Shown here: piece by piece, positions 7,928 through 57,426 of the stretch
Numbering within the stretch: position 1 is the stretch's first letter
Layout of the letters: every line of letters begins with the position of its first letter
Assembly (NCBI RefSeq): GCF_022539665.2
Contig: NC_081332.1
Location: 434,001 to 498,000 of the forward strand
Length of the DNA stretch: 64,000 bases
Direction: 5' to 3'
Origin: Daphnia carinata
Taxonomy: Eukaryota
Program-made: the position numbers and the translations under genes
The notes under the pieces: generated by a model
Database searches by the model: none
Seen by the model: the letters and a program-made list of their open reading frames with translations, nothing else
Told to the model about the DNA's origin: nothing

Positions 7928-7974
7928 TTGTATTCGCCCATGCAATAACATTGCACGGTAACAGATTTACCTTG

Positions 7975-18376: not shown

Positions 18377-18613
18377 ACGGAATATGCTCGCACGCACGAA
18401 AAATCACCGAGTGCATTCGCAAGCAGAACATGCCATAGCCCACGTAAAATGAAAGAAAGCCGTCAAACAACCAGCGAAGGATTAGAAAAGCCCAAGAAAA
18501 AGCCCCTTCAAGAACACTTCCAGCTTGACTGAAGGAATTGAGGGCCGAATGGTTATCAAACGCGTGCCACGAAAGCAGACTGGATTTTCAGAAAAATAAG
18601 TAATAGTCTTACA

Positions 18614-18686
18614 CGCCCAACGTGGGGCTCGAACCCACGACCCTGAGATTAAGAGTCTCATGCTCTACCGACTGAGCTAGCCAGGC
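18614..18686 (-). tRNA. tRNA-Lys-CTT: tRNA-Lys(CTT), unit 12 (partial unit)
   Basis: copy of 414-486. Confidence 0.95.
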
Positions 18687-19003
18687 ACACGTTATGTAGA
18701 AGTGCTTGCATTTGATGTGACACCCTTTCCGCTATGTTTTGGAAAAACCATCTCTTTTAATATGCTAATTAACAAGACATGAACTGCAATCAATAAATTA
18801 AACAAACTCTTTACTACCAATAAAAATTCACCCTGTGATTCATTTTTAATGGATACTGGAAGTATCTGGAGGTTTCGGCTGTAAGTCGGAAGACTTAGAA
18901 GCCCAATCATAGATGACCATAGCTGCACTGCAGCTGGCACTATGATTTGCAAACTTCCTATAATTACATATAATCAGTTGATATTGTTGCTGACAAGGCA
19001 ATG

Positions 19004-19004
<1 letters not shown>

Positions 19005-19034
<30 letters not shown>

Positions 19035-30048: not shown

Positions 30049-30838
30049 TCACCTTCGTAAACCTTCATCGTACCGAGCTGCATAGTGTAGGACGGTTTCA
30101 CCATTCGCTGATGCAACATTGACGTTTGTTGGCATCAATATTGTTTTCTTTCGCTCTTCGTGTTGGTGTGCAATAGCCACCATTAACGGAGTTTCACCGA
30201 AATGGTTGTACTCCGTCAATTCGCAATTGTGGTGTTTTAATATCTTTATTAGCAGCATGCCGTTCTCTGCTGCTGCTATGTGCGATTGTTTTTCCGTTTT
30301 GTATTATCTCTGGGTGTGCCCCGAAAGATAATAGCAAATCTGTCAGATCGCGGCTGTTTTTTCGTACTTCTTCCCGTTTTAAAATTTTTCGTTCATGAGT
30401 GAGGCCACTTGTTGTCTTGGCCAACTTTCCCGAACTTTTATCTTGCGGAGTATACACTGCCTTACAATTTCCGCTGTGTCCCTATCATACTTAAAGAAAC
30501 TCTACCTTTCTTTAACTTCATTATGGGATTTCTCCAACTTCCTATCCTTCCTGCTCTCGCTGCCAATACTGAAGCGATGGCCTTCATTCTGCAGTTGTTG
30601 CATTTTTCCGTTTCGCGCCAGGTTCTGAGTAATTTCTTTCCACTTCACTTGGCAAGTCACATACTAAAAAATTGTCATCGTCGAAGTCACTGTAATACTG
30701 CAGCCCCAAGTAATAACTCTCATTTGCACTTGCTCCGCTTGCATGCGAGTCCAATTCCCGATGTGAGTGATTATTTCCCTCTTTACTTTCCGTGTCACTG
30801 ATTGTGATCAACTCGTACTGTCGCTCTCTTTTCGGCAC
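30049..30838 (-). pseudogene. Intronless frameshifted ankyrin-repeat protein gene
   Basis: DLLLSFGA, GKTIAH, GETPLMVA, NVASANGETVLHYAA in adjacent frames. Confidence 0.7.
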
Positions 30839-31672: not shown

Positions 31673-32067
31673 CTACAACATAACTTGAATATTGTTGAAA
31701 TAAAAATCTTGTGGGGGGTCCCAATGGCGGGAAGACCAGCCGTAGAGGGGTGGATGTCTCCTCGCTGGGTCCAGATCCAGGACGAGTTTCAGCGTGTCGA
31801 TTGCGCACTCTCTATAGAGCGTATTCCCCAGCTTTCCCAGCAATTCGTTAATTTTTTCTTCCAAAACGCGCACCACCCGGACCTCTCCCTGGCCCCAGTC
31901 GTCCCGGCTCAGTATTAGGACGATTCGGATGACTCCCGAACCGTAGTGAAATGGTCGTCCTCGGATGGGGGTGGCCGCGGTTGCGGTAAAGGATTACCGA
32001 TTTCGTCGATCCTAAGCCATGCCCTCTCGTCCGCCGTGATAAATTCGTTATTAGAGTTGGATTCCAT
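31673..32067 (-). pseudogene. Retroelement accessory ORF-X homologue (degenerate)
   Basis: LKLVLDLDPARRHPPLYGWSSRHWD matches 39367-39852; internal stops/frameshift. Confidence 0.8.
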
Positions 32068-32203: not shown

Positions 32204-32916
32204 TGTCGAATATCTTTTATTCTAATAGGCCAAAAGGATAATAAAAGGATACACAGTTATAGGGCATAAATGGGAAACAGAAATATAAATGGAGTTATGC
32301 GAATTTAGTCTTACCGTCACCGCCGTGGCGAAGATAAAAATAGAGATGATAAATGTTGTACGGGAAAGATAAAGATAATAGGGCTGTCAGTCGCACAAGA
32401 AGCAATGAAAAGCACTCACAATAATTATTGAATAAGAAACAAATTAAACCCACTAGATTTGAGGAATTAAGCAGCACTTGTAGCACTAAGAATGGAAACT
32501 ATGACTGGAACTGGAACAGGAACAAGAGAGAACGGAAGAGAACTGAAGATAACTGAAGAACTGACTTTTGGGAACAAAAGGGCATCCTTTTATATATTTT
32601 ACATGTTTGAGGGAAACATAGCATTTCCGACAGATGAGCTCCGGATATAAGTTATTGAATATCTCACGCAGCAACATTTCATATTCATGGAAATGTATGG
32701 TGCGATGTTCTACGCATGAAGCTCATCCAATCAGCAATAAGCAGGATGTAAAGTATAATATAAAAATAGAATTCAAGGAAATGTCAATGACACTTGAATT
32801 ACTATATTTATAATGTATACTTTAAATATAAAACATAGTATATAATTTTAATATAAAGAAAACAAACAATGAAGATAAAATACAATTAAAAGTTGTATTT
32901 TGATGACTTCGTTACA
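32204..32916 (-). mobile_element. LTR-1 (divergent relative of family A LTRs)
   Basis: TGTAACGAAGTCA...TTCGACA on minus; followed by the same TTGTGG..AACGCC leader and hairpin as LTR-2/3. Confidence 0.7.
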
Positions 32917-32955
32917 TATGACTGCGAAGAAGCTGTGATTCACATCACTGGGCGT

Positions 32956-33700
32956 ACAGCTTTTATAATAGTCCTCTGTTGTTGTTCGAGAAGTACGCAG
33001 TTTGGTGGCATTACACTTCATTTCTGTAACAAATTGGTTTCCTCCGATTTCTTTGCGTACGTGGATTTATATCTTGATGCTGGTGACACATCATCTTTGC
33101 GCTCAGTTTGCTGAATTTCGGAATCGCAAGCGGCGCGTAGAGGGTCAGGTTCAAAAATTGGTGTTGAATGTTGTTGATTTTTCGTAACGCAATAAACGTC
33201 ATTTGATGACAATTGCTCTTGGGTCGACAGACGAGATTTATGGATCATAATATCTTCTAGTACGAGTTGTTGACCCATCGAATTGGTGTCTGTTACCAAT
33301 TTTGACAAGACATCGAATTCAATATTTTGTTGCCTCACAACTTCATCATCGAGCCCGTGTTCAGTAACATCTGTTGTTTGGATCACAATTGACTTGCGGA
33401 ATCGGTTCTCAAATTCCGAGGGAGTCTCTAGTGGAGGGCAATGCTCATGTTTCCATAGCATTGTTTCATATAACGGTTTTAATCTATTTACATGCGTACG
33501 CTGACAAATATACGAATTATCTGCGATGGCTACTGTGTTATTTGAACAAGCTTTTACTGTTCTATAAGGTTCTTTATACTTTTAAGTGAATTCCTACTGT
33601 CTCCTTCTTTAACTACTCGAATATCTAATAACACCCGATCGCCTATCACATATCGGTTTTCTTTTGCGCGTTTATTATACAAATCCCTCTGATTGCAAGA
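32956..33700 (-). mobile_element. Family A integrase C-terminal fragment
   Basis: YNKRAKENRYVIGDRVLL, MLWKHEHCPPLETP homologous to 40040-40760. Confidence 0.85.
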
Positions 33701-34143
33701 CCTGACTGCAAGAAACTCATAATTTTTAACATCGTATATAAGATAGAAAACAAAAGTGAGAGATAGAAATATGAAAATAATTAAGACACAGAAAAGCAAT
33801 GATGGATTTGGTCATTGTCTTATCCTTTCTCTTTTTTTTTTTAACTCAGACGTTATCCTCTTTATTATGTTTATTAGCGAATTCTTTAGTAGCATCTTTC
33901 ATGTTTGTTTATTCGCTATACTTTTTTTTTTAATGAGAAAAAGAATTCAGACAAATGCAAGATCGAAAATTTGTATGTAATGGTTAATAAACTACTAAAG
34001 AAACACAAGGTATATGTATAAAAAAAATCAAGTGTGGAGAAAATAAAAGACAAGAAACAATAATTTTAATCATCTGGATTCAGAAATCTCGCTCCATTTG
34101 GGCGCCTTCCGGGTCGTCCGCAGGTAGGGCACACGTCCTGCAC

Positions 34144-34644
34144 CTACCATTGGGATAGCGCCCAATTTTGTGGTGGAGGCATTCGGTTTCGTGGATCGAG
34201 CTCCAGAATTTCTTGAATCTTCTCCACAGACCGTTGCCAATTCTCTTCGTTTAGAGCTTTGTGTAGCTCTATCTTCAAAACCCCTGTTCGCAGATGGAGT
34301 TCGTGCAGGTGTAAGTCGTGTCGGGTAGGCCAGGTGGGGCGCGGGCAAGAACGTACGGGTTCCGGCATTAGTGTAGCGATTGGTCGTACCCGCACCGGGC
34401 TGGATGGCGCCTGAGGTGGAGCCGGGTTGGGCTGGACCCGGGGTGGAACACGGATCCGGAGTGGAAGATTCACCTGAGGTGGAAAAGGGACCTGGGGCGA
34501 AACAGGTAAGGTAAGGAAAGCGACAGATGGCCCCGCTACCGGCTCACTCGAATTATCTTGTCGAAGTCGCCAAGATCTGTCGGAACTATGCCGACGAGTT
34601 GTGTAGGGTGACAGTTTATAATTTCCGTTGTTGTCTTTAGGCAT
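34144..34644 (-). CDS. Divergent ORF-X homologue (Pro-rich N-terminus; the stop may be premature)
   Basis: NWQRSVEKIQEILELDPRNRMPPPQNWALSQW aligns to WHAAINTLKGILDLDPERRHPPLYGWTTCHW. Confidence 0.6.
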   Translation of the reverse strand: MPKDNNGNYKLSPYTTRRHSSDRSWRLRQDNSSEPVAGPSVAFLTLPVSPQVPFPPQVNLPLRIRVPPRVQPNPAPPQAPSSPVRVRPIATLMPEPVRSCPRPTWPTRHDLHLHELHLRTGVLKIELHKALNEENWQRSVEKIQEILELDPRNRMPPPQNWALSQW

Positions 34645-34687: not shown

Positions 34688-35677
34688 TTAAAAGTTGCAT
34701 CTGCCCTTAGAGCTGGCCCTTGACGGGAGGATGTGTTCTATTGGGGTTGAATTTCCTCCAGGCATTCCTTCAATTCGGGATTTTTGATTGACTTCTAGGT
34801 CAGAAAATTTCACCTCTAGAGATTGCATTCTATTTGCAGACACTTCCAGTTTGTCCATTAGTTCAGACAGCTTTGTTGTACTAGATATCTGACTTTGAAT
34901 CTCCTTTTTTACAGAAGCTATGTCCTCTCTTACATTATGAATTTCACATGCCAGATCTTTTATATGATCCCTTGTTTCCTTGTATTTCTTGATCATTAAG
35001 CATCTCAAATCCTGGTGCCTGTCATTAGCTTCTTTGTTGGTTGATTTTATGAGTTGAATTATCTTAAATAAATCAGGATTCTCAGCATCTGTTCTGTCTC
35101 TTTTAGCAGATCTCATAATAGGAGTTATAATCTCAGTCGTCACAGGTAGGGGAGGATACTGTGGTGGGGTGGATGGGCTAGCATCCATTAATAGACTTTC
35201 CTGTTCTTCTTCTAGTAGTGAATCTTCCAATTTGGTTGTCTTCTTTTTTTGAAAAAGACCCGAGACGGTGTTCAAAAAAGTGTTTGTTGGGGAAGTGTTT
35301 GTGGAAACGGTTTTCTTGGGTGAGAGATGGGATACTAGTTGGGCTAGTACGGAAGGAGGGTTCCTTACAGTCAAGGTGTTAGCGTTACTTTTAGCTCGAG
35401 GTTTACGAACGTTTGAAAGGTCTACTCCTGTCACCAACTCATAGGCAGAGTTCGATCTTAACTTTCTTAACTGGGGTTTATGTGAAATTGTACTAGGCTT
35501 CAAAACAGGAGAAGCAGATTTCCTAATAGCTTCTGTTGCCCTTCTCGAAGTTTTATTTCCCGTAAACGTATCAGATTCAGCAAGATTTGAAGTGGAAGTT
35601 TTATCGAAATTAATAGATCTGGCTACAGCTTCGTCAATTTGTATAACTGGCTCAATAGGACTTTTAGTAGCGGACAC
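34688..35677 (-). CDS. Headless 329-aa ORF (Ser/Thr/basic low-complexity + coiled coil) behind the LTR-2 leader
   Basis: long open frame without ATG at its start; heptad-like IKDLACEIHNVREDIASVKKEI. Confidence 0.45.
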   Translation of the reverse strand: MSATKSPIEPVIQIDEAVARSINFDKTSTSNLAESDTFTGNKTSRRATEAIRKSASPVLKPSTISHKPQLRKLRSNSAYELVTGVDLSNVRKPRAKSNANTLTVRNPPSVLAQLVSHLSPKKTVSTNTSPTNTFLNTVSGLFQKKKTTKLEDSLLEEEQESLLMDASPSTPPQYPPLPVTTEIITPIMRSAKRDRTDAENPDLFKIIQLIKSTNKEANDRHQDLRCLMIKKYKETRDHIKDLACEIHNVREDIASVKKEIQSQISSTTKLSELMDKLEVSANRMQSLEVKFSDLEVNQKSRIEGMPGGNSTPIEHILPSRASSKGRCNF

Positions 35678-35800
35678 AGGTGTAAAGCATCTTCCCGTGT
35701 GGGAAGATTGACTTTACGAATTTAAGACAATAAAGAATAAAAGAATAAAAGAATAAGAGAATAAAAGAACTAAAAGAACTCAGAGGCGTTGTACCCACAA

Positions 35801-36501
35801 TGACGACTATATTTGTCTTAGTTTAAGTATGTAAAATACAAGATGTTTTGGATAAGGACATAAGAAAAAGCTATTGAATAAAAAAAGGGGGGGGGGACAG
35901 AAAGGGAAACGGGATAATTGTAGTGTGAGCTTACCGCGGTAGCGCGAGCCGAATAAGAGAGTAGATGTAAGATGAAGACGAAGTGTAACACAACTCGTCG
36001 GCACGTCGTTAAAAACAAGTTACAAGAATTGAACACTCACTTCAACACGAGACAAAGATCAATTCTCAAACATAATATTAAAACAAGAGAAGGCACTTAG
36101 CTGAATCAGAACCTGACCGTTAGCCTCAGATACACGTCAGTAACTGACTTTCTTCAGGTCTTGAGTTCATCAAGAAACCTCGCATATTAGGCAATGATTA
36201 ATTGCTGCGCAATTACTTGTCACCAATACATGAAATTTGATATGGCGCGATGATGGTACAATGATGAGAAATGCTTGATTCCGCCAATCAAAGATGTTGT
36301 TACAAGTGGCTTGATGTCGATGAAATATGATCAGACAGTGAGCAGGTGTTCATATAGGTCACCCTGCTGCGTGTATGTTATGGTGCAATATTGAAATGGC
36401 GCAGTTATATAATTGCGCAATTCATAGTGTTTATATGTGTTTAAAAAGCATATATTGACAAGAAATATAAAATGGATAATATATGTATTGACTTCGTTAC
36501 A
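35801..36501 (-). mobile_element. LTR-2 (family A)
   Basis: TG...CA, 701 bp, alignable end to end with 45689-46388. Confidence 0.85.
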
Positions 36502-36534: not shown

Positions 36535-38224
36535 TCAGACTGGATGCATGGGAAAGGATTCAGAAGTCGTAGAACGTTTCGGGGAGCGACAGCATATGAT
36601 CCAGATGACTTTGAAGAGACCGCAACTGTAGCAGATGCGTAAGAAGATGAGCACCAGGATACATAAGATGCCGATGAAGAAGTAATTCTTGATTGTTTCC
36701 GACCAAGATGTGTAAGTTCCAACACCAGCAGCCGTCACAAAAATGTTTGTAGCATTAGGTCTACTGCGTAACGTGAATTCTGATGGTGGATGTTCGTTTA
36801 TCGCGGCAGCTATATCGGCCATGATGTCCATGTGATTAAGCATGTTGTCGGTATATGCCGGATTACTTTAGTGTTCGTAGTCGAGAAATTCGACGTTTTC
36901 GTAGCGAAACGAGTGTGCGAGCGTCTGCTCAGGCAACACAATTGTGGCTTCAATTTGTTCCCAGGTGTTGTTGCGGAAAGCATAAGGTTTGTCATTAAAG
37001 TTGACAAATCCATTTGTCCAATAGCACGGGGAATATTTTACAAGTTCCCAGCCATCGAGGTTAATTGTAAAATTTTGGAATTTCGGTTGTGGTCCGCAAG
37101 AAGTCAACGTAGTCTCAAATGTGACATTTAAGGCTTTACATTGAATTAATACGACCGTTTTTCCGAACGCTTGTAATTTTGTGCACTGGGGTAAATTTAA
37201 CTGTGAGGCTGCTAACCATCCATTATATTGAGCAGTTGTAAATGCTCTTTTATGTTTGGCTTTGCGCGCATCACATTGTAGTAATTGAATTTGTCTTGCC
37301 AATTCATTTTCATGATCAGCGAGTTGATCACGAATATATTGAATATTGGCTGGAGTGTTCAAATTTTCAGCGCTAGGTGGCGCTTGAGTGTCCAATGTTG
37401 TTGTTGAATTTTCCATAATGGCCGCCATTGTGACGAACAGTTTTGATTGGCCAACGATTCCGTATGAAGAAGCCTTATTGGAGCAATTTTGTTGTATGGA
37501 AACAGCGCGAAACCGGTGTCAAATGGAAGTCTAGTTGATTTTTGTCGTCTTGGAGTCTGAAGATTTTTTCCTCTCCTGGTAATTGTTTAAGCATGCCGAT
37601 TCCATCTTCGACAAGTCGGGTATACAATTTAGTTTTCTGAGTATAGGTTGTATCCCAAATCAATGTTAAATGATTATACGACAAGTTGCCTGACACAGCA
37701 GAAGCAGTTCCGATAGGTGTTGAAAAGTCTGCGTCTTCTTTTGATTGGAAAAGTTCAATTTTTTCAAGTACACAATTGATAATTTCCGAATCGATGGTCC
37801 GCAACCAGAAACCTGTAATATCTGGTTCATTGTCGAACACAAATTTTCCGTCTGAAAAAGTCATTCGATTTTCGTTGCACCTTTTATTATGAATCATTTC
37901 GTTGCACTCGGCGGTTGATGTGTCGATGGAAATTTTGTCTGGCACTACCACTAGTTGTCCGAAAAAATTCATGGTGATATGCCGTATATTTTTCCAACGC
38001 GCACAAATATATCCCGGGAATTTGCTTGCAGCACGTTCTTCACTATAAACTGCATATTTTACGCGGATGGCCTTATTATCGGTAGATATCGGTTGGCAAT
38101 TCGCGTCAGAAAATTGAAGAATTCCCATCTTCAACGGCTCTGCGCAATCGCATACGGTCGTTTCAAATGCTTGCGGGTGTAACCCGTAAAGGCATAGTAG
38201 CAGCATAAATGGAAGTGGGGACAT
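36535..38224 (-). pseudogene. env: env, class III (herpes gB / chuvirus G-like) fusion glycoprotein; one frameshift (~37480) and one stop (36868)
   Basis: splice acceptor then signal peptide MSPLPFMLLLCLYG; VCDC, GYICARW..NFFG..AEC; IQYIRDQL..NEL...QC...G....IQC; C-terminal TM YFFIGILCILVLIFL. Confidence 0.75.
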
Positions 38225-39366
38225 TTCTATATACGGAAGGTATATAGAAAAGCAATACATACAAAAAAAAAAAAAAAAGCAATGTTACTGACATCATGTG
38301 GGCTTCTTAAAACTAAGTAGAACAAAAATATAGAGGAAAGAAGAAAGAAAAGGAAAAGTGAAAAATATTCTACGGCTTTTTGGAAGGTCAACGCTTTTTT
38401 TTCTTTTCGTCGGCTTTGCTAGCTAGCTACGGCAAAAAAAAAAAGGAGAAATATTGTAGGGCATTGTAATATAATTGTGTTTTCGGGAGGAAGGATAATT
38501 TATTTTAAAAAAAATTTAGTATCATTGGAACGAGGAGAAGATAAGCTTAATTATTGAAAAGAAAAAACAAGAAAATATAGTATAGTTTAGTGGGGAAGAA
38601 AAGAAAAGAAACGTAGTTTGGCAATGGGGTTCTACAAAAGGGAACTACTTCAATTGTGACTACCAAATTGTTATAATGTGTCACGTATTAATGTGTTTTT
38701 ACGGAAGTGAAATAAAACTTAAGGTTTTATTCCCAAAAGCAATACTTCTTTAATGTTTTTACTCAAGTGGCTTTATGTTTCAGAATCTATAATGACTGTT
38801 GGATGTTAAGACGTAAAAGATAAGAAATGACTATAGGGCGTAAATGGGAAAAATGAAATCGTAAAAATGGAGAAAGAGCCAAACACATGTAATATGAGCA
38901 TAATAAGTTCATGTGCATAACACAACTAAGGTTTTTTTATATATAGAAATTGGTGTTCGTTAACAACTACGTTATTTAATATAAAATTTTTTTTTTTCAA
39001 GAGAATCCTTTTATTTGTTTGTTTGTTTGTTTTTTTCTTATTTTTATTATTATTGTTCTTGGATACATATTTTCCTTGTCTTTTTTAAATATATGGATAT
39101 ATATCGATAGGGAGTATCGTGATATATTGCGTAAGTGTATATCTTATCACTATCCCCTTTTTTTTCTTTTTTTTTTTCAATGGTAATACGAAATTATTGG
39201 GTATTGTACTTATTCCATCTGGTATAAAGGAATATAAAGATGAGGAAATAACGGCATACAGAGTAAATATTGTAACCATAACTGAAATTGAATAACATAA
39301 GTAACAAAAAACATAGGAAGAAGAGAGAAATTTTTTTTTTTCTTTGGATGTCGTCTTCCTGATGCG

Positions 39367-39852
39367 TTAGAGGTATTTGGGCCTCTTAGCATCCGGGGTG
39401 TCTTCGTGGTCTCCGCCACTGGAACGCTTCCTGGGTCGAGGCGAATCCCAGTGACAGGTAGTCCAGCCATAGAGCGGTGGGTGTCGCCGCTCGGGATCCA
39501 GATCGAGGATCCCCTTTAAGGTGTTAATGGCTGCGTGCCATTGCTTCGAGTAAAGGTGATTCAGGAGGCGACAGATGTTTTGGTTGGTCTTGATATCCAG
39601 TTGTTTATCCTCCAGGGCTGCTGCTCGGTGCCAGTCGTTTCGGGCTCCACCGTTGCAGAAATCTTCGGCATCTTGCATGTCAAATGCCTCCGGTACGTCT
39701 CCAGCAACGGTTGCCTCGTCGTCATCGGAGGGAGACGTAAGGTCTACGACCACGATCTCCGGGGCGGGCAGCGGAATGGATACCATGGGTATCCAGCTAC
39801 TGCTGACTTCAATCTCTTCGGCTTTTTGGATTTGTTTCTTGTCGGCTTCCAT
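39367..39852 (-). CDS. Intact 161-aa accessory ORF-X between pol and env
   Basis: ATG-to-stop, upstream TATA-like box 39983-39990, three homologues in window. Confidence 0.8.
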   Translation of the reverse strand: MEADKKQIQKAEEIEVSSSWIPMVSIPLPAPEIVVVDLTSPSDDDEATVAGDVPEAFDMQDAEDFCNGGARNDWHRAAALEDKQLDIKTNQNICRLLNHLYSKQWHAAINTLKGILDLDPERRHPPLYGWTTCHWDSPRPRKRSSGGDHEDTPDAKRPKYL

Positions 39853-40039
39853 TTTATTTATTTTTTTTTCCTTCTATGTGCTCGTTAGCCGTGCAACAAT
39901 TAAAACTTGTCTTGAACAGATAGTTCTTGATTGTTCACGTAGAGTACGAAGAAGTGGTGATTTTCTTCCACTCAACGCACTGTTTGTATAGTAGTCCACT
40001 TGTTATTGTCCGAATTAGAGAACTGCGCAATTGATGTCA

Positions 40040-43000
40040 TTACACTTCGTCTCTATAGCGAATTGGTTTTCTCCGATCTCGCTGTGGACGTTGGTTCACA
40101 CCGTCTTGATGCGATGATGCTGATTGCGCATTATTTTCGGGCTCAATTTGCTGAATTTCGAATTCCTTAGCGGCGTATATAGGATCATTTTCAGGTTGAG
40201 TTGATGGATGCTGTTGATTTTCGGTAACATCGCAATTGTTATTTGAAGACAATTGCTCTTCGATCGGCAGTTCGATCACAATATCTTCGATTATAAGTTG
40301 TTGACCCATTGAATTGGTGTCTGTTAACACTTCTGACACGGATTGTGATGCGATATTTTGTTTTCTTGCGGCTTCGTCATCGAGCTCGTGTTCAGATACA
40401 TTAGTTTGAGTCGCAATAGACTTTCGGAATCGGTTCTCGAATTCCAAGGGGGTCTCAAGTGGCGGACAATGCTTATGCTTCCATAGCATTGTTTCATACA
40501 AGGGTTTTAATCTATTTACATGAGTACGCTGACTTATATATCAATTATCAGCGATGTCTACAGTATTATTTGAATAAACTTTTACTATTCTATAAGGTCC
40601 TTTATATTTCAAAGTGAATTTCCTGTTATCTACTTCTTTTACTACTCGAACGTCCAATAACACCCGATCGCCTACCGCGTATCGGTTTTCTTTCGCGCGC
40701 TTGTTATATTGTTCCCTTTGGCGCTTCCTAGCTTTTTCGCTTTCTTCTCTAACCCTATGAAAACTATAACGCAATCGTTCTGGGGTGTCCAGTGTCGAAG
40801 AGTGGACCGAGCTACGATACGCAAATAAAACATCACCTAACATTTCTTCCCAATTGGCATGTTCGCCGTCTTTTAATTCTTTTCTTAACATAGACGTTAA
40901 AGTTCGATTGAACCTTTCCGTCTCTCCATTACTAGCTGGGTTATAAGCGGTGGTTAATCGCTGATCAATCTTTAACTTTTTACAAAAATAACGGAATAAT
41001 TTTGATGTGAAATTTGTTCCACGATCGGAAAGAATTGCTTTAGGCATTCCATGTCTAACTATAATGGTTTTATATACACACTCTGCTGTTGTTGAGCAGT
41101 TTGATCTTTTAAAGCAACAGCTTCAACCCAACGGCTAAAATAATCCGTAATAACAAAAATATAACTATTTCCATTGGGAGAAACTGGTGTAATTGGCCCC
41201 AAAAAGTCCATTCCAATTACTTGAAAAGGAGCTTTAGCAATTTCATGGGGATGTAAAAGTGCTCTATAAGACGAGGAAGTGTTTGGAATGCATACTTCAC
41301 AAGCCTGACAATATTCTTTAATATCGCCTCTCATATTTGGCCAGTAATAATTATTTTTAACCTTCATATAAGTTTTATAAAATGCCAAATGTCCACCCAG
41401 TGGAGCGTCATGTAATTCTTTAAGCACTAGATGGCGCAAAGATAATGGTAAAACTAATTGGTGGTTAGTGTCGTTCCTGTTACTACTCTGAGATGGCAGT
41501 TCCCGTCTATAAAGTGTTCCTTCGATTATCTCAAAATACTCAATTTCCTTTATCCACTCAGGTTTTGATAGTTTAAAAATCTCATCTATTTCTCCTTTCT
41601 CTAGATAATTCCTGATGGCGATACAAAGATCATCTTCCAATTGGTTTTCACAAATCAGTTTCATATCCTTCCCACTTTGAATACTGGCTACTTTTAACCT
41701 CGATAAACAGTCCGCATTTTGATGAATACGACCTGGTCTATATTTTAATTCATAAATGGTTGCGGCTAATAAAATAGCCCATCTTCCTAATCTTCCATTA
41801 TTGTCTTTCTGATTTTTAAGCCATTGTAAGGGGCGATGATCACTAATTATTTCGAAGGGTTTATCCAATAGATAATGACGGAAATGTTTAATCGCATCTA
41901 CGACTGCTAGCGCTTCTTTTTCTGTTGTACTATATTTCATTTCTGCTTTGGTTAACTGTCTACTGGAATAAGCTATCGGGTGCTCCTGACCGTTTTGAAT
42001 TTGAGAAAGAACGGCTCCGATACCGTAGTCGCACGCGTCAGTGAAAAGAAAGAACTTCTCATTAAAATTTGGATACACGAGAACTGGCGGTGTAATAAGA
42101 GAAGTACGCAATGTCTCAAAAGCTAACTGTTCTTCCGTTCCCCATGCAAAAGGTTGCTTACTTAAATCTTTATGTGTTAATCTGGTTAAGGACTTGGCAA
42201 TTGAACCAAAATTTGGAATAAATCTCCTATAATAACCTGCTAAACCGAGAAATGACCTCACTTCATCCACCGAAGTTGGCGTTTTATAATTTACTATTTT
42301 ATCAATTTTCCCTGGATCAGGTTTAATTCCCTCAGTTGAAATGACATGACCTAAATAATTTACCGAATTTTTAATGAACTGGCATTTCTTAAGTTTTAAT
42401 TTGAAATTTGCGTCCTTTAATAATGTAAAAATTTCCCGAATATCGTTTAAATGATCCTCAAACGTGTCCGAAAATATGATGACGTCATACAAATAAACTA
42501 ATGCTTTACTTCCCAAGAGTTGTGAGTTGTGAAAAATTTCTTTCCGTATAATTTATCTAATGTTTCGTCTATCCTCGGCATAGGAAATGAATTTTTTTTT
42601 GTAATACTATTTAATTTCTGATAATCAACGCAAAATCGTACTTCTCCGCCTTTTTTCTCTACTAAAACCACAGGTGAAGCCCATGGAGATTGTGAATATT
42701 GAATTCCATTAGATGCTAGCATTTCTTGTACTTTATCTTCCAATATTTTTCTTTGATTGTTCGTAACTCGATAAGGGCGTTGTCGAATAGGGCCGATGAG
42801 ATGAGATGAGTTTAGTGCTACCCAATTCCGAATCTTTTGCTGCGAACAAGTCGTGAAAGTCATTTAATAATTTGGAGAACGGGGCTTGAAATTCAGCGTC
42901 GACTTCTGAAATTAAAACTGGTTCGTGTGGTATAATAAGTTTTTCTTCTAGTTTACTTAAAGCAATTTTCCCAATTATATTTTGAACTATTTCTATTGAG

Positions 43001-43729
43001 CCTAAAATGGTATTCCTAGGAATAATGACTTGATTTAATGAATGATTTTCGACCATAATCTGATATTTCCCATCTCCCGATACATTTCCAACAAATTCCT
43101 CAATAATGATGCCGTTCGGCAAATCCTCTGCTGGGGTAAAAATAAATGCGGTATTAGGGGGAACATACGGAAATGACCCTGTGATTTTCGCTGCAATTAC
43201 GAGCGACGTCTGACGAGATAGCGTCGTCTTTTTGACCGTCGTAGCTGCCATGTCTGGTACCCTAGGGATGGCTGATCCCTGCTCATCCCTCGCTAAATAA
43301 ATACGTTTGGCTTCTCCATCAAGCCGAACTCCCTGTTTCTGGATTGCATCCCATCCAAGGATACAGTCTTCAGAAACACCATTTGTAACAATAAATTCCT
43401 GCTTTAAAACTGACTCTCCGTATCGTACGGGCAATGTAACTCTTCCCAGCGTATTTAACTTATTCTCCCCTACATCATATAAATCGAAATCAAGCTGACT
43501 GCAGATTGCTTGACCTCTCGGGGGTAACTTTTGAAATATTCTTTCGTGAATAATGCTTTTAGACGCGCCTGTATCAAATAATGCTTGTAAAGGGATTTGA
43601 AAAATCTTTAATGGAATTCTACGGGGTCGATTCATTTATTATGGATGTTAATTTCGCGACTTGTCGGGATTTTAACTGAGGCTACCTATCAACTGACCCG
43701 AAGTTACAGATGATACCTATTGGTTTCCC
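40040..43729 (-). pseudogene. pol: pol (PR-RT-RH-IN) of A2 with deletions and frameshifts; RT motif YLYD
   Basis: ORFs 42733-43635, 42498-42863, 41059-42516, 40541-41047, 40040-40501. Confidence 0.92.
43664..43729 (-). promoter_or_regulatory. -1 ribosomal frameshift signal (G GGA AAC + pseudoknot), A2
   Basis: slippery heptamer just before gag TAG; stem TATCA(T)CTG/CAGTTGATA; loop TCGGG vs downstream CCCGA. Confidence 0.7.
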
Positions 43730-44955
43730 TGGGGCTGAGAAGGGCCTGGAATATTAGGCCTACTGGAGCTATATTTGGGACAATTATTTGATTTATGTCC
43801 AATTTCACGGCAAGAATAACAAATTGGAGGCTGCGCTTGCTCTAAATTATGTCGTTGGAATTTACGGCATTCCGATTGCGTGTGACCGCGATAATTACAG
43901 AAGTTACATGTTATTACGTTCTGCGTAGGCCTATTATTCTGATCACACTTGCGAAGGGCGGTGTAGAGTTTGTAGGCCTATTTTGGTTCCTATCTCGTTG
44001 GTAAGGGTGGGTGTTGTTATGGGAGCGCGAATTATTGGGTCCCCAATTTTTCTCCCGACTGTTGATATCAGTGCTAAATGAAACCTTTTTTTTATATGGG
44101 GCACTCGCCGACAGCTTTTATAATAGTCCTCTGTTGTTGTTCGAGAAGTACGCAGTTTGGTGGCATTACACTTCATCTCTGTAACGAATTGGTTTCCTCC
44201 GATTTCTTTGCGTACGTGGATTTATATCTTGATGCTGGTGACACATCCTCTTTGCGCTCAGTTTGCTGAATTTCGGAATCGCAAGCGGCGCGTAGAGGGT
44301 CAGGTTCAAAAATTGGTGTTGAATGTTGCTGATTTTTCGTAACGCAATAAACGTCATTTGATGACAATTGCTCTTGGGTCGACAGACGAGATTTATGGAT
44401 CATAATATCTTCTAGTACGATCTTCTAGTATGATCATTAAAATTACTAAATTCTTTATATTTAACTTTCGATTGTAATTTGGAATTCAATCCCTCAAGTT
44501 TTTGCATCAGGCTTAAACCAAAGATGCTTCTGAATAGCCTACAGGATATACGCGTTTGAAAATTTCCTGCAAACGGTGAGCATATTCTATAATCTTTTCC
44601 CCTGGCTTACGCTTAACTTTATTAAACTTCTTTTGGTAAAAATCCGCATTCCGTCCCCATGGAAATGATCAAGAAGAGATTCTTTAATCAGGGCATAATT
44701 GTGAGGATGAACCTTCAAAGTTGCCTGAATGATCGAGAAAGCTTGGCCAAGATTGATCTACCAATTTGGCCTTCAAACATCTGAATAATTTTCTCACGAT
44801 ACTTTCAAAAGATTCTAGCCAGGAATCAAAACGTACAAGGGGATTTCCAGAAAGAGAAGGAAGCAGCTGTAAACGGGAGAAGGTATGTTGGTTTTTTTAG
44901 AAATCATTTAAATCATTGACGTGGCCGCTCCTAAAGGAGAAAAAGTTTCCGCCAT
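43717..44955 (-). pseudogene. gag: gag of A2 (degenerate, interrupted by 310-bp integrase-tail insert)
   Basis: homologous to 61905-63156; CNFCNYRGHTQSEC and CYSCREIGHKSNNC knuckles. Confidence 0.85.
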
Positions 44956-45688
44956 GTTTGAATTGAATATGGGAAAATTCAAAGTTCTTCCCTGTGGATT
45001 CTGAGGGTGTTCTGAATTGTCGTTCGTAATTGCCTGAGACTCTCTAGCGTTTCTTCCGGTTGGCTGGATTGCTGGGTTCGATGGCGTTGTTGAGTGTGTG
45101 AGTGGCTGGAACGTGGTTTCTTCCGCGTTTCCCTCTTCTCTTCGGGTTGTTTTCCGACAGCGGCGATGTTTCTTGAATTGGCGTGGTTTGATGCTATGTT
45201 TGTGTCGTTTGTATGAACGACAGCGATTGTCTCAACTTTATTTCCGTTTGTGCGAGTATTGGCTTGATGTCCCTCGCCTGCTGTGCGTAAAATGGGTTGT
45301 TGGCAACCAGAAAAGTGCTCAGTTTGTCCAAAAGGAATATAATTTCTGGCTGCAGCACCTCCAAATTGGTGATCAACTGTAGTTTCTTTAAGTACGACAC
45401 TAGGTTGGGCACCTCTTTCAGGAACGTCCGTTGTGACGCCAGCAAGATCTCTACCAAATGAACTGATGTGTCGCTCACCACTGTGATTATCTCCACGTAT
45501 ATCCCGTCCTCGTCGCTGTCGATGACGTCCCGTCTTGGAACGAAACCGAAACCGATTAGTTTCTGCTCTTTTGTTGGCGTGATCTTTTGCATATCGATTG
45601 TGTAAAGCATCTTCCCGTGAGGGAAGACTGACCTTAAGAATTTAAGGCAATAAGAATTAAATGAACTCAGAGGCGTTTGTACCCACAA

Positions 45689-46388
45689 TGATGATTATAT
45701 TTGTCTAAGTTAAGCATGGAAATGCAAGAGAGTTTGAATAAAAGTCATATGAAAGTTATACGAAATTAAAGGAAAACTGAAAGTGTAATAGGGCAATCTA
45801 ATAAGCTTGCCGCAGTAGCGCGAGCGGAACATGAGAGTAGACACAAGACGAAGACGAGGTGTAACACAAGACGAAGACGAGGTGTAACACAACTCGTCGG
45901 CACGTGGATAAACAAGGTACGGATAATTGAATACTCAATTAAAACACGAAGACAGAGATCACTTCTTGAACACAATAGTAGAAATTTAGAGAAGGCACTA
46001 GATGAATTAGAACCTGACTGCTACAATCAGATACACGTCGGTAATAGACTTTCTTCAGGCCTTCAGTTCATCAAGAAGCCTCGCATATTGGGAAATTGGT
46101 TCATTGCTGTTCAATTACTTGTCACCAATCGGAGATTTTTAATATGGCGTGCTTATGGTAGAATGAAGAGCCACCAATCAAAGATGTTGTTATAAGTGGC
46201 GTGATTCTGATGATACATGAAGCGTCAGCGAGCAGGTGTTCATTTAGATCAAACTGCTGCGTACGTTATGGTGTAATATTACAATGGCGCAGTAGTACAG
46301 TTGTGCAATTCATACGGTTTTATATATGTGGTCAACAATCATACATAGAATAGAAATATCGTATAAAACGTTCATTGGCTTCGTTACA
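45689..46388 (-). mobile_element. LTR-3 (5' LTR of A2 and 3' LTR of A3)
   Basis: TG...CA, 700 bp; internal 23-bp direct duplication near 45843-45890. Confidence 0.85.
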
Positions 46389-46421: not shown

Positions 46422-47690
46422 TCAGACTGGATGCATGGGAATGGATTCGGAAGATGTTGAACGTTTTGGCGGGCGACAGCATATGATCCGTATGATCTTG
46501 AAGAGGCCGCAACTGTAGCAGATGCGTAGGAAGAGTAGTACCAGGATGCATAAGATGCCGGTGAAGAAGTAATTCTCGATTGTTTCCCACCACGATGTAT
46601 AGGTTCCGACACCAGAAGCCGTCACGAAAATGTTTGTAGCACTAGGTCTACTCTGGAACGTGAATTCTGACGATTGATGTTCATTTATCACGGCAGCTAT
46701 ATCGGCCATGATGTTCATATGGTTAAGCATGTTGTCGGTATATGCCGGGTTACTCTGATGCTCATAGTCGAAAAATTCGACGTTTTCGTAACGGAAAGAG
46801 TGTGCGAGCGTTTGTTCAGGCAACACAATTGTGGCTTCGATTTGTTCCCAGGTATTGTTGCTGAAAGCATAGTGCTTGTCATTAAAGTTGACAAATCCAT
46901 TCGTCCAATAGCAAGGGGAATATTTTACAAGTTCGCAGCCATCGAGGTTAATTGTATAATTTTGGAATTTTGGTTGCGGTCCGCAAGAAGTCAATATAGT
47001 CTCAAATGTGACATTTAAGGCTTTACATTGAATCAATACGACCGTCTTTCCGAATGCTTGTAGTTTTGTGCACCGGGGTAAATTTAATTGTGAGGCGGCT
47101 AACCATCCATTATATTGAGCAGTTGTAACGGCTCTTTCATGTTTGGCTTTGCGGGCGTCACATTGTACTAATTGAAGTTGTCGTGCCAATTCGTTTTCAT
47201 GATCGGTGAGTTGATCACGAATATATTGGATATTCGCGGGTATGTTTAAATTTTCCACGCCAAGTGGCGTTTGGGTCTCCAATGTTGTTGAATTTTCCAT
47301 GAGGGCTACAGTCGTAACGAAGAGTTTGGATTGGCCGACGATTTTAGAGTTTGGAAGAAGTCCTATTGGAGCATTTTCGCTGTATTGAAACGCAGCGCAG
47401 TACCGGTGTCAGATGGAAGTCTAGTTGATTTTTGTCGTCTTCGAGTCTGAAAATTTGTTTTTCTCCTGGCAATCGTGTCAGCATACCGATGTCGTCTTGG
47501 ACGAGTCTGGTAGTTACTTTAGTTTTCTGGGTGTAGGTTTTGTCCCAAATCAGTGTTAAATGATTGTGTGACAAATTGCCTGACGCAGCAGAAGCATTTC
47601 CGATAGGTGTTGAGAAGTCCGCATCCTCCTTTTGTTGGAAAAGTTCAACTTTTTCGAGAACACAGTTTATGATTGTCGAATCGATGCTCG
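46422..47690 (-). pseudogene. env: env of A3 (5'-deleted, frameshifted) class III glycoprotein
   Basis: 292-aa C-terminal ORF closely similar to A2 env incl. TM. Confidence 0.8.
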
Positions 47691-48687: not shown

Positions 48688-49191
48688 TATATTTTCTTTT
48701 TATATGTATATGTATATCGGTTGTAAGGATCATGATATACCGCTTAAGTGTATATCGTATCATTATCCCCCCTTTTTTTTTTCTTTCTCTCTTTTTTTTT
48801 CCAAGACAAATGGTTATTTACCTACAGTGTTTATTTACTTTGCATAAAAGCATATAAGGATAAAGCGAATAATAGCATGTGATACTGTAGCAGTATGTTG
48901 TATTGACGGTTCACAAGACTAAGACTGAGACCTGATACACGACCACGGGGGACTATATAAGGGGGAAAACACTGACGTCATACGTCCGGGTAGCATTGCA
49001 TACTAACCGGATCACATAACGTGGTCATTGACCACGTGACATCCCCCCCTCTAGCTGCATTCGGCCCCGAATGCATTGCTAAAAAACAAACAACACAAAA
49101 AAAAGGTATAAACCGAAAGAAAACCGGGGACACTGCTACATGGTACAGGCCACATGACACCCCCCCCCCCCCCCCCACAAAAAAATCATCC

Positions 49192-51236
49192 TCATGCCAG
49201 ATGCTCAAGGGACGACTCCAGCTTGTGCAGTGTCGTCAAGCAAGCCTCTTCATGCGCTGCCATACGATTGTCTATTTCCGTAAGGCAATGCATGGTGTTC
49301 CACCGCCGCGCGCGTCGCTTCTCAGCTTCTTCCTCGACGAACTCCTCCACCATCCGTAGGCGTTTCCGAAGGTCGGCCATATTAACGTCTCCTTTTCTCC
49401 CTCGGCACCACTGGATACTGCACACAGCCACACTGACCATAAACAACGCTGCTCCCACACCCCATAGCTCGAATGGATATTTATGATGTTCCGCTGCTCG
49501 TTTTTCCCTCTCCGAGTCGTCTACTTCCAAAGCACGGATAGTGTTACCAAAACTAGCTGCGTTCTTCAGACTGCCGCCGATCCGTTTCAAGGGCGCCTCT
49601 AATGAAGCCTGCAGCGATGAGTTCGTAGATTTCCCGCTCGTCATGCTTCCTTGTTGTTGGGCGTCTGTAGCTACAGCCCAGTTTACCCCTTTTAGACGTG
49701 GCACAAAGTCGTTCCCCTTCCTAGTGGATGATAACGAGTGTTGCCTACTGGCCTGCAAAATCCACTCATCAGTTTGAATGGAGCAACCGTGTGGGATTTC
49801 GACAATGCCGACCAACGGCAGCTCTGCTTTCGAAGAATCCCTCGAATCTGTCTGTTGAGGACACTCCATTACAAGAGAGCGTAGATTATTCATTGATACT
49901 GCCCATGTCCGGTGGCCCAGGTAAATGGCTTCAGGTTCTCTCCATTCTACTACAACATGATCGCACTCCGTCTTCTTTTTGTCAGTATCCTGCAGGAACA
50001 GCGCCATCACACAAGTCTTCTTAAAATTTTTCCGGTAGATAGCTTTACTGGGCGGACATACCGAGCTCGCCCTTCCCTGGCAAGAGCGTACCTTGGTTTC
50101 CGTCAGTTCAATAAATGTTTGCTGATCCCGCCCTACCGCCAGAATGCGGGAATGGGTGCGTAATGAAGACCCGCGTTACCTGCAGCACTAAACACTGGCA
50201 ACACAAGTGTTCGATATAACTCAAATGTCTTAGTAATAATCTCAATTATTGGCAGATGAATGAATAGCCGAAGCCCGTTTGTTGTGGCCGCTACGACGAC
50301 CCGGGCTTCCTGGTATGCCCTCCACAGGTCACCATTCTGCAAAGCAGGTGTTAGTGCCCAACCCATCGCCAAAGAAGCTCGAATTTCTTTAAGAACCGAT
50401 CGCAGTTGAGTAGGTGGGAAAAGTTCCGGGGGTAGGTTGCCGGTTGCCAACAGGGCGAAACCAATACCGATGTCCTCCAATGCCATGCTGGCCCAGTCTA
50501 GAACTCTCTGAGCAGCTCGAAAGGCTTCGTCCACCCTCGTCGTCATAATCACTTGACTCTCTAGGGCGTTCACGGCACTCACCACATTCTGTCTCCATTT
50601 GTTGAATTCCTTCTCCAGTGATTGGTGCGCTCTGTCCAGCTGCTGCATGGCCAGTACATGTTCCCCTAGTTCTCGTAATGTCTCATTCACTAACGTTGCT
50701 TGATGAGCCACCGCACTCACTATCCCCGACGTTTCTCCTCCCAAGGCCTGCAGCTGACCATTAAGTTCTTCTAGATCTTGACTTGTCGCCACCCCAAACA
50801 GCCATTGCAGTGCGGTACCGCCGACGTCGATAATACCTCTCTTGGCCCTCCTGGGCCCTCCGGCCACCGCCTCCCGCAGCGTGTCGTACCGTTCACGTAC
50901 AAGTCCAAATAGCTCCAACCCGTCCGTCGCCCTTTCCACCATCTGCGCCCGTAACCGTGCACTCCATTTCGTTTCCTTCGCCTGCGATTCTTTCTTCTTG
51001 GCCGAGTCGGTGAACCAAAGGTGCAGTTTGTTCAGGGCGTTTTTTATGGGTCCGAACGAGACATCGGTCACTACTACCCACTCCGAGTCACTAAAGAAGA
51101 CCTCCCCTTGTAAATGGAATATTACTCCATCCCTCACAAAAGCCTCTTGGGAATGTCCTTGACTGGGTTGTACCCCCATCAGCGGTCCCAGTAGTCCTAG
51201 CAGAAGGAGAAGAGCCCCTACTGCCGCCTGCGGCAT
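49192..51236 (-). pseudogene. env: env, baculovirus F / errantivirus-type class I fusion protein (frameshift ~50140)
   Basis: signal-like AVGALLLLLGLLG, furin site RRAKR followed by fusion peptide GIIDVGGTALQWLFGVATSQD, heptad region, Cys-rich part, TM LWGVGAALFMVSVAVC. Confidence 0.85.
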
Positions 51237-54179: not shown

Positions 54180-54220
54180 CGTCCCCTCTTCAATCCATTG
54201 TTGGTGGTCCGATAAGTTGG

Positions 54221-56176: not shown

Positions 56177-56189
56177 CCTCGCACCGCTT

Positions 56190-56385
56190 GTTTCTTGCCG
56201 AACTCTTCGGCTCCCGGTTCACTCCTCCGCTTCTTGCCCAACACTTCGGCTCACGGTTACTTCTCCGCTTCTTGCCGAACATTTCGGCTCACGGTTCACT
56301 GCCCCGATCCTTGCCAAACACTTCGGATCACGGTTACTTCTCCGCTTCTTGCCGAAATCTTCGGCTCACGGTTCACTGCCCCGCC
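56190..56385. repeat. ~32-bp imperfect tandem repeats in family B leader
   Basis: TTCGG(C/A)TC(A/C)CGGTT recurs six times. Confidence 0.8.
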
Positions 56386-56920
56386 TTAGCCCTTTTCCCC
56401 GTTTTTTTTCCCCGGCGTCTCTCCTTCGTTATGCTTCCCCCGATTGCCCTACGGTCGAAGCCCTGACCCCGTACCCCAACAATTTAAGGTGCTAAGACCA
56501 GTTGGGTCGTCGACTCTCAGGGGTCCCTGACAGCCACCGCCTCCGTAGCACAGAATCGAACAGAAATACAACCACAAAAGAGACTTACCAGAGGTTTTGC
56601 ATCTCCACCATGTAGCAGTATGTTGTATTGGCGGTTCACAAGACTAAGACTGAGACCTGATATACGACCACGGGGTACTATATAAGGGGGAAAACACTGA
56701 CGTCACACGTCCGGGTAGTATTGCATACTAACCGGATCACATAACGTGGTCATTGACCACGTGACAATATCAATAAAGGAAAACGTAAAAGTAAATATAA
56801 TGAACATAAAAAAAATTGAAAGGGAAGCTTGAGGGAATACAAGAAAAAAACACACTACAAGAAAGTTAAAATGGATAGAATGGAAAAATTTCTTCTTTCT
56901 TCGTTTTCTTCAGTTGTTCC

Positions 56921-57426
56921 TCATTCGTTTAAGAGGTATTTTGGCCTTTTAGCATCAGGGCCCCCCTGGTGATCGTCTGCGCTGGATCTCTTCTGGGGCG
57001 AGTCCCAGTGGCACGAAGTCCATCCATAGAGTGGCGGGTGGCGCCTTTCCGGGTCCAAATCGAGGATCGCCTTTAAGGCGTCAACGGCTTCACGCCATTT
57101 TCCATGTAGATTCGGTTGAGGAGAACTCCAGTCAGCTTGTTGGTTCTGCCTTCTGGTCGTCTCTTCTCACGGGCTGCTTCACGAAGCCAATCTTGTGCGT
57201 CTTGCTTTTCGCGGACCCCCCCCCCCCCCCCTTGGCTCAACTCTAAGGCGTCTTGCATGTCGAACGGCGCCGGCGAGTCCCTGGCCACGGTCTCCCCGTC
57301 GTCGGACGTCGATGGAGACGCCAGGTCTACAACGACGATTTCTTGGAAAGGCAGCGGAATCGCCACCATTGGGGTCCAGGTGCTGCTAACATCGGGCGCA
57401 GAAATGGACTCAGGGTTGTTCTCCAT
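56921..57426 (-). pseudogene. ORF-X of A3 (frameshift ~57100)
   Basis: EIVVVDLASPSTSDD ... then LKAILDLDPERRHPPLYGWTSCHWDSPQKR...AKRPKYL; TATATAAA at 57547-57554. Confidence 0.85.

What the first reader, a model, noticed from the sequence alone, without database searches (positions are those of the whole stretch)
39367..39852. ORF-X: candidate retroelement anti-silencing protein (SIM + unknown conserved domain + bipartite NLS)
Seen: intact 161-aa ORF with EIVVVDLTSPSDDDE, domain W.....L..ILDLDPERRHPPLYGW...HWD, and RPRKR-x11-AKRPK. The SIM-like and terminal basic motifs recur in A3 (56921-57426), and the core domain recurs at 31673-32067 and 34144-34644 despite otherwise different sequence. 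Established: V/I-V-D-L-T plus an acidic/Ser tail is the PIAS-type SUMO-interacting motif, and SUMO (Su(var)2-10/SetDB1) drives piRNA-guided transcriptional silencing. Inference: a nuclear factor that hijacks or blocks SUMO-dependent silencing, or a transactivator; it is retained even in gag/pol-less derivatives.
Basis: partly seen in the sequence, partly recalled or inferred. Interest (0 to 1): 0.85.

Follow-up and report, generated by a model that had tools for sequence, protein, structure and literature searches.

The report
New accessory gene of water-flea retroelements
A small extra gene, kept intact by selection and matching no described protein family, sits between the polymerase and envelope genes of a water-flea retrovirus-like element; it likely encodes a nuclear helper that boosts the element's own expression, but the SUMO-binding motif that suggested an anti-silencing role is found only in two close copies.

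Summary
ORF-X is a real accessory gene. It is an intact 161-aa frame between pol and a class III (gB/rhabdovirus-type) env of a Daphnia-type Ty3/gypsy errantivirus. Against copy A3 it shows dN/dS 0.17-0.21. Thirteen outside relatives were found, 8 named from Daphnia magna or D. sinensis. In D. magna one relative is the next annotated protein to an env of this family, and one gene model joins two ORF-X-like domains to that env.

What is conserved is a helical hairpin with a TPR-like second helix and an RHPPLYxW loop. No Pfam, NCBIfam or fold match passes threshold. The strict VVDLT SUMO motif occurs in 0 of 13 relatives and in neither gag/pol-less copy; the bipartite basic tail is confined to ORF-X and A3. 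Relatives instead carry acidic, Trp-studded disordered arms.

Best reading (about 0.4): a nuclear adaptor with exchangeable host-binding motifs that favours the element's expression. SUMO anti-silencing as the family's function is about 0.12. No function, expression or localisation was tested.

The parts
39367..39852 (-). ORF-X, intact 161-aa accessory ORF of element A2; GC 55% against 37% in pol; A at -3 and G at +4 around the ATG
39715..39756 (-). type-B SIM-like motif with Ser/acidic tail (aa 33-46) in the disordered acidic arm; shared only with A3
39442..39642 (-). conserved core, aa 71-137: predicted helical hairpin (H71-101, H105-118) followed by the RHPPLYxW..W loop
39376..39438 (-). 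bipartite NLS-like tail, aa 139-159; same spacing in A3
56921..57426 (-). A3 copy of ORF-X after the integrase tail of element A3; one frameshift between 57106 and 57100; 63% aa identity over 143 codons
31673..32067 (-). 31k copy directly behind an LTR and leader, no gag or pol; start frame and core frame differ; no SIM, no basic tail
34144..34644 (-). 34k copy, most divergent; Pro-rich arm; core ends at a stop; no SIM, no basic tail
40040..43635 (-). broken pol of A2 (protease, RT, RNase H, integrase pieces, integrase tail 40040-40489)
36535..38260 (-). broken class III env of A2; about 65% identical to D. magna P0003 over two pieces
45194..45610 (-). ORF0, a second small ORF ahead of gag, selected in its frame against A3 (dN 0.15, dS 0.39)
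45883..46388 (-). LTR upstream of A2 (inner end approximate); follows the env at 46422-47689
35983..36501 (-). LTR downstream of the A2 env (inner end approximate); 81.5% identical to the upstream LTR; heads the unit with the 34k copy
32355..32916 (-). distant LTR (58.5% to the previous one; inner end approximate) heading the unit with the 31k copy

Best explanation
ORF-X is a selected accessory gene of a water-flea Ty3/gypsy errantivirus, lying between pol and env, and it likely encodes a small nuclear adaptor that promotes the element's own expression in trans. Shown: position, purifying selection, family membership, and which parts are conserved. Predicted: a helical hairpin plus a conserved RHPPLYxW loop that is poorly ordered on its own, so it probably folds on a partner. 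Inferred: this core is the fixed anchor, and the disordered acidic arm recruits host transcription or chromatin cofactors through short motifs that are exchanged between lineages (acidic-Trp motifs in most relatives, PVDLS in one, a type-B SIM in this lineage). Inferred: the basic tail brings it to the nucleus. SUMO binding would be a lineage-specific add-on, not the core function.
For: Selection: dN/dS 0.17 with protein-guided pairs (143 codons; pN/pS 0.32, bootstrap 0.24-0.43) and 0.21 with a DNA-guided alignment. There the ORF-X frame has the lowest pN/pS of six frames and is the only one without stops in either copy, and 5 of 7 gaps are multiples of three. Family: 11 hits among 1.84 billion representatives, 13 with a profile. 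Linkage outside this window: OUZ56_010700 (ORF-X relative, KAK4005658) and OUZ56_010702 (env, KAK4005659) are consecutive accessions, both on a 13,735,228-base contig; model OUZ56_021476 holds two ORF-X-like domains followed by env. Architecture: two AlphaFold2 models give the same hairpin at pLDDT about 85-98 with disordered flanks. Arms are net negative in 11 of 13 relatives; an acidic-Trp motif is present in 6 of 9 non-redundant arms against 0.75 expected, 0 of 5000 shuffles (motif chosen after looking). Three or more K/R follow the core in 6 of 13 relatives. Precedents: the nuclear sORF1 of Drosophila MDG1 elements (PMC11952523, section 7) and EVIDLT in adenovirus E1A (PMC5030357, passage).
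Against: No expression, localisation or binding data. The core is not basic (K/R about equal to D/E), so no DNA- or RNA-binding surface is evident and the link to the LTR is unexplained. ORF-X's own arm has only one Trp. Seven of 13 relatives lack a clear basic tail and three end in CxxC. Two of 13 arms are not acidic. Many relatives are automatic gene models whose ends may be wrong. A PPxY motif in the most conserved stretch points equally to WW-domain partners. The host elements here are decayed, so the selection is ancestral.
Confidence: 0.4

Rival explanations
1. WW-domain adaptor. The conserved PPLY is a PPxY motif that would recruit a Nedd4-type ligase (particle release or receptor down-regulation for an enveloped element) or another WW protein such as Yorkie.
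For: PPLY in 11 of 13 relatives and 3 of 4 window copies. Apart from one PPQY at 35167, no other PPxY or P[TS]AP occurs in minus-strand frames beyond 28 kb, so the decayed gag genes show none (YPxL was not listed). The loop is conserved but low in confidence in both models. The role of PPxY is recalled, not from a call.
Against: Tyr is replaced by Phe in P0065, P0071 and the second domain of P0075, and by Gln in the 34k copy. Flanking R123, W130 and W135 are as conserved as the prolines, which suggests a folded surface. ORF-X and A3 carry an NLS pattern.
Confidence: 0.15
2. Rev-like or CERV-like factor that exports or stabilises the unspliced genomic RNA.
For: The leader has donor-like and acceptor-like sites by eye, so unspliced RNA may need help to leave the nucleus. 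CERV of the Ty3/gypsy element Cer1 does this job and includes a helix-hairpin-helix domain, an NLS and a Cys loop (PMC10309623, abstract and section 9). Three relatives end in CxxC.
Against: No Arg-rich stretch in the core. CERV is 517 aa with three domains; no CERV-like hit appeared in any search, and no direct comparison was made. Splicing is not shown here.
Confidence: 0.13
3. One reading: a SUMO-pathway decoy that blocks piRNA-guided or other SUMO-dependent silencing.
For: Canonical type-B SIM with the Asp said to be critical for affinity (PMC4161520, passage). Chance rate 0.0023 in shuffles. Nearly unchanged in A3, although dS over aa 15-64 is 1.6. P0056 has VDLS at the aligned place. SUMO scaffolds Piwi silencing in Drosophila (PMC8490990, passages).
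Against: Strict motif in 0 of 13 relatives and in 0 of 2 gag/pol-less copies. A loose SIM pattern arises in 20% of shuffles. The whole aa 15-64 stretch is conserved, not only the motif. The Drosophila pathway runs through Panoramix, described as Drosophila-only. A 2019 review knew no TE-encoded antagonist of the piRNA pathway and argues that broad ones are costly (PMC6719617, passages).
Confidence: 0.12
4. Self-restraint factor: the arm recruits co-repressors (SUMO-modified complexes, CtBP) to damp the element or its competitors.
For: SIMs and PxDLS are both repressor-recruiting motifs (recalled). P0056 has an exact PVDLS where ORF-X has VVDLT.
Against: PxDLS in only 1 of 13 relatives; most arms look acidic and Trp-rich instead.
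Confidence: 0.1
5. Captured host fragment (a lone TPR-like hairpin) carried as passive cargo, with no use to the element.
For: GC 55% against 37% in pol and higher dS than neighbouring genes (1.3 against 0.3-0.8) suggest a foreign, exchangeable module. Weak TPR resemblance (Pfam TPR_7 E 0.28; designed CTPR proteins, summed E 3.5e-4 with no single repeat significant; Atlas TPR-type clusters at 0.81-0.85).
Against: Purifying selection between element copies, an invariant core across species, duplication next to env in D. magna, and no longer cellular parent among the hits.
Confidence: 0.05

Closest known systems
Branchiopod errantiviruses with HSV/gB-type env (Chary and Hayashi 2026, PMC13524379)
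   Same: Ty3/gypsy LTR-gag-pol-env layout in Daphnia. The env resembles their Branchiopoda_C2 rows by eye, and its relatives give weak class III fusion hits.
   Different: An extra ORF between pol and env and another before gag. The passages read describe none ('accessory' and 'SUMO' 0 occurrences in the main text). Their screen allowed 1000 nt between pol and env; the gap here is about 1,780 nt.
sORF1 of Drosophila MDG1-group elements (PMC11952523)
   Same: Small, selected, helical accessory protein of a Ty3/gypsy element; nuclear; function unknown.
   Different: Lies upstream of gag, about 110 aa, in env-less elements; no hit to it in any search here.
CERV of C. elegans Cer1 (PMC10309623)
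   Same: Lineage-restricted regulatory protein of a Ty3/gypsy element with a helical hairpin domain and NLS.
   Different: 517 aa, three domains, shares exons with gag; proven RNA-export role.
VANC anti-silencing proteins of plant VANDAL transposons (PMC6719617, PMC13547354)
   Different: DNA transposons; sequence-specific, acts on DNA methylation, structurally related to MAIN. ORF-X shows no DNA-binding fold.
Adenovirus E1A conserved region 2 (PMC5030357)
   Same: EVIDLT, which binds Ubc9, closely resembles EIVVVDLT; both sit in small viral proteins. That E1A is a disordered hub of short motifs is recalled.
   Different: No homology; resemblance of a short motif only, absent from most of the ORF-X family.
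TPR and UVR helical hairpins; Vta1 C-terminal domain
   Same: Hairpin geometry; A..LK.ILDLDP resembles the end of TPR helix B; best structural match Vta1 at Z 7.2, rmsd 1.8, 53 residues.
   Different: One hairpin only, with a much longer first helix and a unique RHPPLYxW loop; all scores within background for helical folds.

Membership tests
Ty3/gypsy errantivirus (host element) | pol order protease-RT-RNase H-integrase | tested here: met
   Order read from ORFs and Pfam RT_RNaseH, Integrase_H2C2 and rve hits; the genes are broken.
Ty3/gypsy errantivirus (host element) | env after pol, followed by purine tract and LTR | tested here: met
   env 38260-36535, then GCCGCCGGGA and LTR at 36501.
Ty3/gypsy errantivirus (host element) | matched LTR pair of one insertion | tested here: inconclusive
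   Flanking LTRs only 81.5% identical and shared between tandem units; target-site duplication not established.
HSV/gB-type (class III) env, Branchiopoda C2 | class III fusion fold and C2c cysteine pattern | tested here: inconclusive
   Sub-threshold Pfam hits in relatives (PF24664 E 1e-5, PF00974 E 4e-5); likeness to the published rows by eye only; not folded.
Type-B (VIDLT/PIAS) SUMO-interacting motif | [VI][VI]DL[TS] with acidic or Ser flank in a disordered region | tested here: met
   aa 35-39 VVDLT then SPSDDDE; pLDDT below 50 at 37-46.
Type-B (VIDLT/PIAS) SUMO-interacting motif | conserved across the protein family | tested here: not met
   0 of 13 outside relatives; 0 of 2 gag/pol-less copies; VVDLA in A3.
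Type-B (VIDLT/PIAS) SUMO-interacting motif | binds SUMO or Ubc9 | not testable with these tools
   Needs a pull-down.
TE anti-silencing factor (VANC-like) | relieves silencing of its own element in trans | not testable with these tools
   Needs a reporter assay.
TE anti-silencing factor (VANC-like) | homology to VANC or another known suppressor | tested here: inconclusive
   No significant Pfam or Foldseek match of any kind; absence from the lists does not exclude it.
TPR repeat proteins | tandem 34-residue repeats above family threshold | tested here: not met
   One sub-threshold hairpin per protein: TPR_7 11.8 bits against cut-off 27.9; TPR_2 12.5 against 27 in P0075.
Classical bipartite NLS | KR, 10-12 residues, K[KR]x[KR] | tested here: met
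   K142-R143, 12 residues, K156RPK; same in A3. Import itself untested; the bipartite form is not seen in the 13 relatives.

The most novel reading that the evidence does not exclude
ORF-X is the first animal retroelement-encoded counter-silencing factor: a conserved anchor with a fast-swapping motif arm, in which this lineage has gained a SUMO/Ubc9-binding motif like that of adenovirus E1A, and which gag/pol-less LTR units carry to act in trans.
Probability: 0.15. Interest if true: 0.85.

Novelty: new variant of a known kind. Interest (0 to 1): 0.5.

Why it matters
Invertebrate errantiviruses are usually drawn as simple gag-pol-env elements. This Daphnia lineage carries a selected, unannotated gene at the position where complex vertebrate retroviruses keep regulatory genes (recalled), plus a second small ORF before gag. 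That gives a new small protein family with a clear test list in a genetically tractable animal. A 2019 review knew no TE-encoded antagonist of the piRNA pathway (PMC6719617), so a positive de-silencing result would be a first; present evidence makes that the minority outcome. The long pol-env gap also suggests that a recent survey with a 1000-nt limit could have missed such elements.

Tried and rejected
No whole genome is held for this window. No sequencing run was listed for 39000-40500, which is no evidence on expression; no reads were laid. The word-seeded protein search with ORF-X alone gave 0 hits among 56 candidates; the exhaustive search then found 11. Viral contigs: no relative of ORF-X in three scans or of env in one. 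Metagenome contigs: 2 loci of 364 matches; both are bacterial-type DNA in which the match is off-frame or 13 residues long, so both were rejected. Pfam, NCBIfam, PDB sequence, Foldseek PDB and viral, VIA-align and ESM Atlas searches gave no significant family or fold. The overlapping plus-strand ORF 39575-39991 lies in the shadow frame of ORF-X: pN/pS 0.48 against 0.37, stops in both copies, and pol and env show the same shadow, so it was rejected as a gene. Two control rows (pol RH, ORF0) were out of frame and were redone. The core tree is unresolved, with 2 of 15 branches supported, so gain or loss of the SIM cannot be polarised. Five look-ups of earlier findings returned nothing. Literature searches listed no paper on this ORF; the library lacks most subscription journals, and Repbase and Dfam were not searchable.

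Full report
Observation. Three more copies of the core lie in the window. A profile made only from 12 outside relatives recovers all four at domain E 4e-23 to 2e-9, with the next segment at E 2.3. A3 is frameshifted between 57106 and 57100, and the 31k copy has its start and its core in different frames. The 31k and 34k copies lack both the SIM-like motif and the basic tail.

Setting. ORF-X starts about 190 nt after the integrase tail of a broken Ty3/gypsy pol and ends about 1,100 nt before a broken env, which is followed by a purine tract and an LTR. The 54 env relatives found include many from Daphnia magna, D. sinensis and D. pulex, up to 67% identical. Relatives give weak class III fusion-protein hits, and the sequence resembles by eye the Branchiopoda_C2 HSV/gB-type rows of PMC13524379 (supplement rows). 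The host is therefore Daphnia or a close relative (inference). Three LTR-plus-leader units stand head to tail. Their leaders align up to a shared start context at 45610, 35690 and 32119, then carry different cargo: ORF0 with gag-pol, a coiled-coil frame with the 34k copy, or the 31k copy directly. The claim that gag/pol-less units keep the core is correct. Whether they arose by deletion or from spliced RNA was not resolved.

Is it a gene? Yes. Against A3, 143 paired codons differ at positions 1, 2 and 3 in 30, 32 and 69 cases; dN/dS is 0.17, and 0.10 in the core. A DNA-guided alignment, free of protein bias, gives dN 0.27 and dS 1.29. The ORF-X frame has the lowest pN/pS of six and no stops, and 5 of 7 gaps keep the frame. 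The core is also constrained against the 31k copy (pN/pS 0.15, 30 codons). ORF-X is 55% GC in a 37% pol context, and its dS exceeds that of pol, ORF0 and env (0.3-0.8), as expected of an exchanged module (inference). Because the elements here are decayed, this is selection in active ancestors.

Family. An exhaustive search gave 11 hits and a profile search 13. Eight are hypothetical proteins of D. magna (7) or D. sinensis (1); five are unnamed assembly proteins. Two give independent context. OUZ56_021476 is a gene model with two ORF-X-like domains followed by env. Context for the others could not be read.

What is conserved. W105, T111, K113, D117, R123, P125, P126 and W130 are invariant in the 12-sequence alignment. 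AlphaFold2 with 19 rows gives a long helix, a short turn and a second helix at high confidence for ORF-X and for P0057, with the RHPPLYxW loop and both ends at low confidence. No fold match stands out: the best is Vta1 at Z 7.2, within background for helical pairs. Weak TPR likeness recurs in four searches but never passes a threshold.

What is not conserved. The strict type-B SIM is in 0 of 13 relatives (11 scanned whole, all 13 arms). P0056 has PVDLS at the aligned place. Arms are net negative in 11 of 13. An acidic-Trp motif occurs in 6 of 9 arms tested, against 0.75 expected; P0061, P0062, P0070 and P0071 were left out as near duplicates, and the motif was chosen after inspection. Tails are basic in 6 of 13 and end in CxxC in 3 of 13. 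In favour of the SIM: it is canonical by the description in PMC4161520 (passage), arises in 0.23% of shuffles, and is nearly unchanged in A3 at dS 1.6. A very similar EVIDLT in adenovirus E1A binds Ubc9 (PMC5030357, passage). It may well bind SUMO or Ubc9, but only in this lineage.

Mechanism. A fixed small core, a variable acidic arm with replaceable short motifs and an often basic tail is the anatomy of a viral adaptor. I commit to a nuclear factor that favours the element's own expression (0.4). The gene status is shown, the fold is predicted, and nuclear entry, partners and direction of effect are inferred. The main gap is that the core is not basic, so how it would find the LTR or RNA is unexplained. 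Rivals are a WW-domain adaptor through PPLY (0.15; Tyr is lost in 2 of 13 relatives), a CERV- or Rev-like export factor (0.13), SUMO anti-silencing as family function (0.12), a self-restraint factor (0.10) and passive cargo (0.05). The remainder is unassigned.

Comparison with print. Accessory ORFs of LTR elements are known: MDG1 sORF1 and sORF2 (PMC11952523, section 7 and passages), CERV (PMC10309623, abstract and section 9), and rotifer ORF3 enzymes (PMC5408684, abstract). Proven anti-silencing proteins come from plants (PMC6719617 and PMC13547354, passages). The SUMO step of Piwi silencing is Drosophila work that depends on Panoramix (PMC8490990, passages). PMC13524379 (abstract, first part of section 5, passages, searched rows of supplements) and PMC2996953 (passages) cover Daphnia elements without mentioning such an ORF in what I read. 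Seven searches listed no paper on it. TE libraries such as Repbase were not available, and unread supplements could bear on this. For acidic activation domains I saw only a search listing.

Verdict. This is a new protein family in a known role class, an accessory gene of an enveloped LTR element. Interest 0.5. The boldest reading, an animal retroelement counter-silencing factor, keeps about 0.15.

Noticed in passing
window 1-19005: Tandem array of a roughly 1,643-bp unit, over 99% identical, carrying tRNA-Ile, Lys, Ile, Leu and Ser genes; 57 tRNA calls. The retroelement cluster lies about 10 kb away.
   Followed up: no
window 45194-45610 and about 63380-63820, minus: ORF0, a second small ORF ahead of gag in both A2 and A3, constrained in its frame (dN 0.15, dS 0.39), with no Pfam hit. 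Possibly another accessory gene.
   Followed up: partly
window 30049-30838, minus: Behind the 31k copy lie a frame with ankyrin repeats (Ank_2 E 7e-11) and a short acidic frame with LITISDTES and a KRK stretch. It may be further cargo of the gag/pol-less unit; no closing LTR was found.
   Followed up: partly
window 34688-35713, minus: A 341-codon open frame with a coiled-coil end and a PPQY motif directly behind the LTR leader; strongly CpG-depleted (0.16 over 34688-35188) unlike its neighbours.
   Followed up: partly
window 48886-56766, minus: A different, GC-rich gypsy element with an F-type env-like region (Baculo_F E 2e-4) sits between the A3 copy and the env at 46422-47689; its LTR pieces are 96.8% identical.
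   Followed up: no
window 44102-44420 and 32946-33265: A 320-bp piece of integrase tail, 97.8% identical to the remnant at 33 kb, interrupts the gag of A2.
   Followed up: no
proteins P0083 and P0094 (D. magna gene models): Both env models begin with a related roughly 90-residue extension ending in a short Arg/Trp-rich stretch, with no match in the window. It may be another small ORF upstream of env in sister elements.
   Followed up: partly
window 22647-26688, minus: Exons of a host gene with an ANTH domain hit (E 2e-7) and coiled coils, including a 93.7% tandem duplication at 23488-24903.
   Followed up: no
window 34070-34143, minus: After the stop that ends the 34k frame the sequence reads on through a CxxC, as in the tails of three outside relatives.
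   Followed up: no
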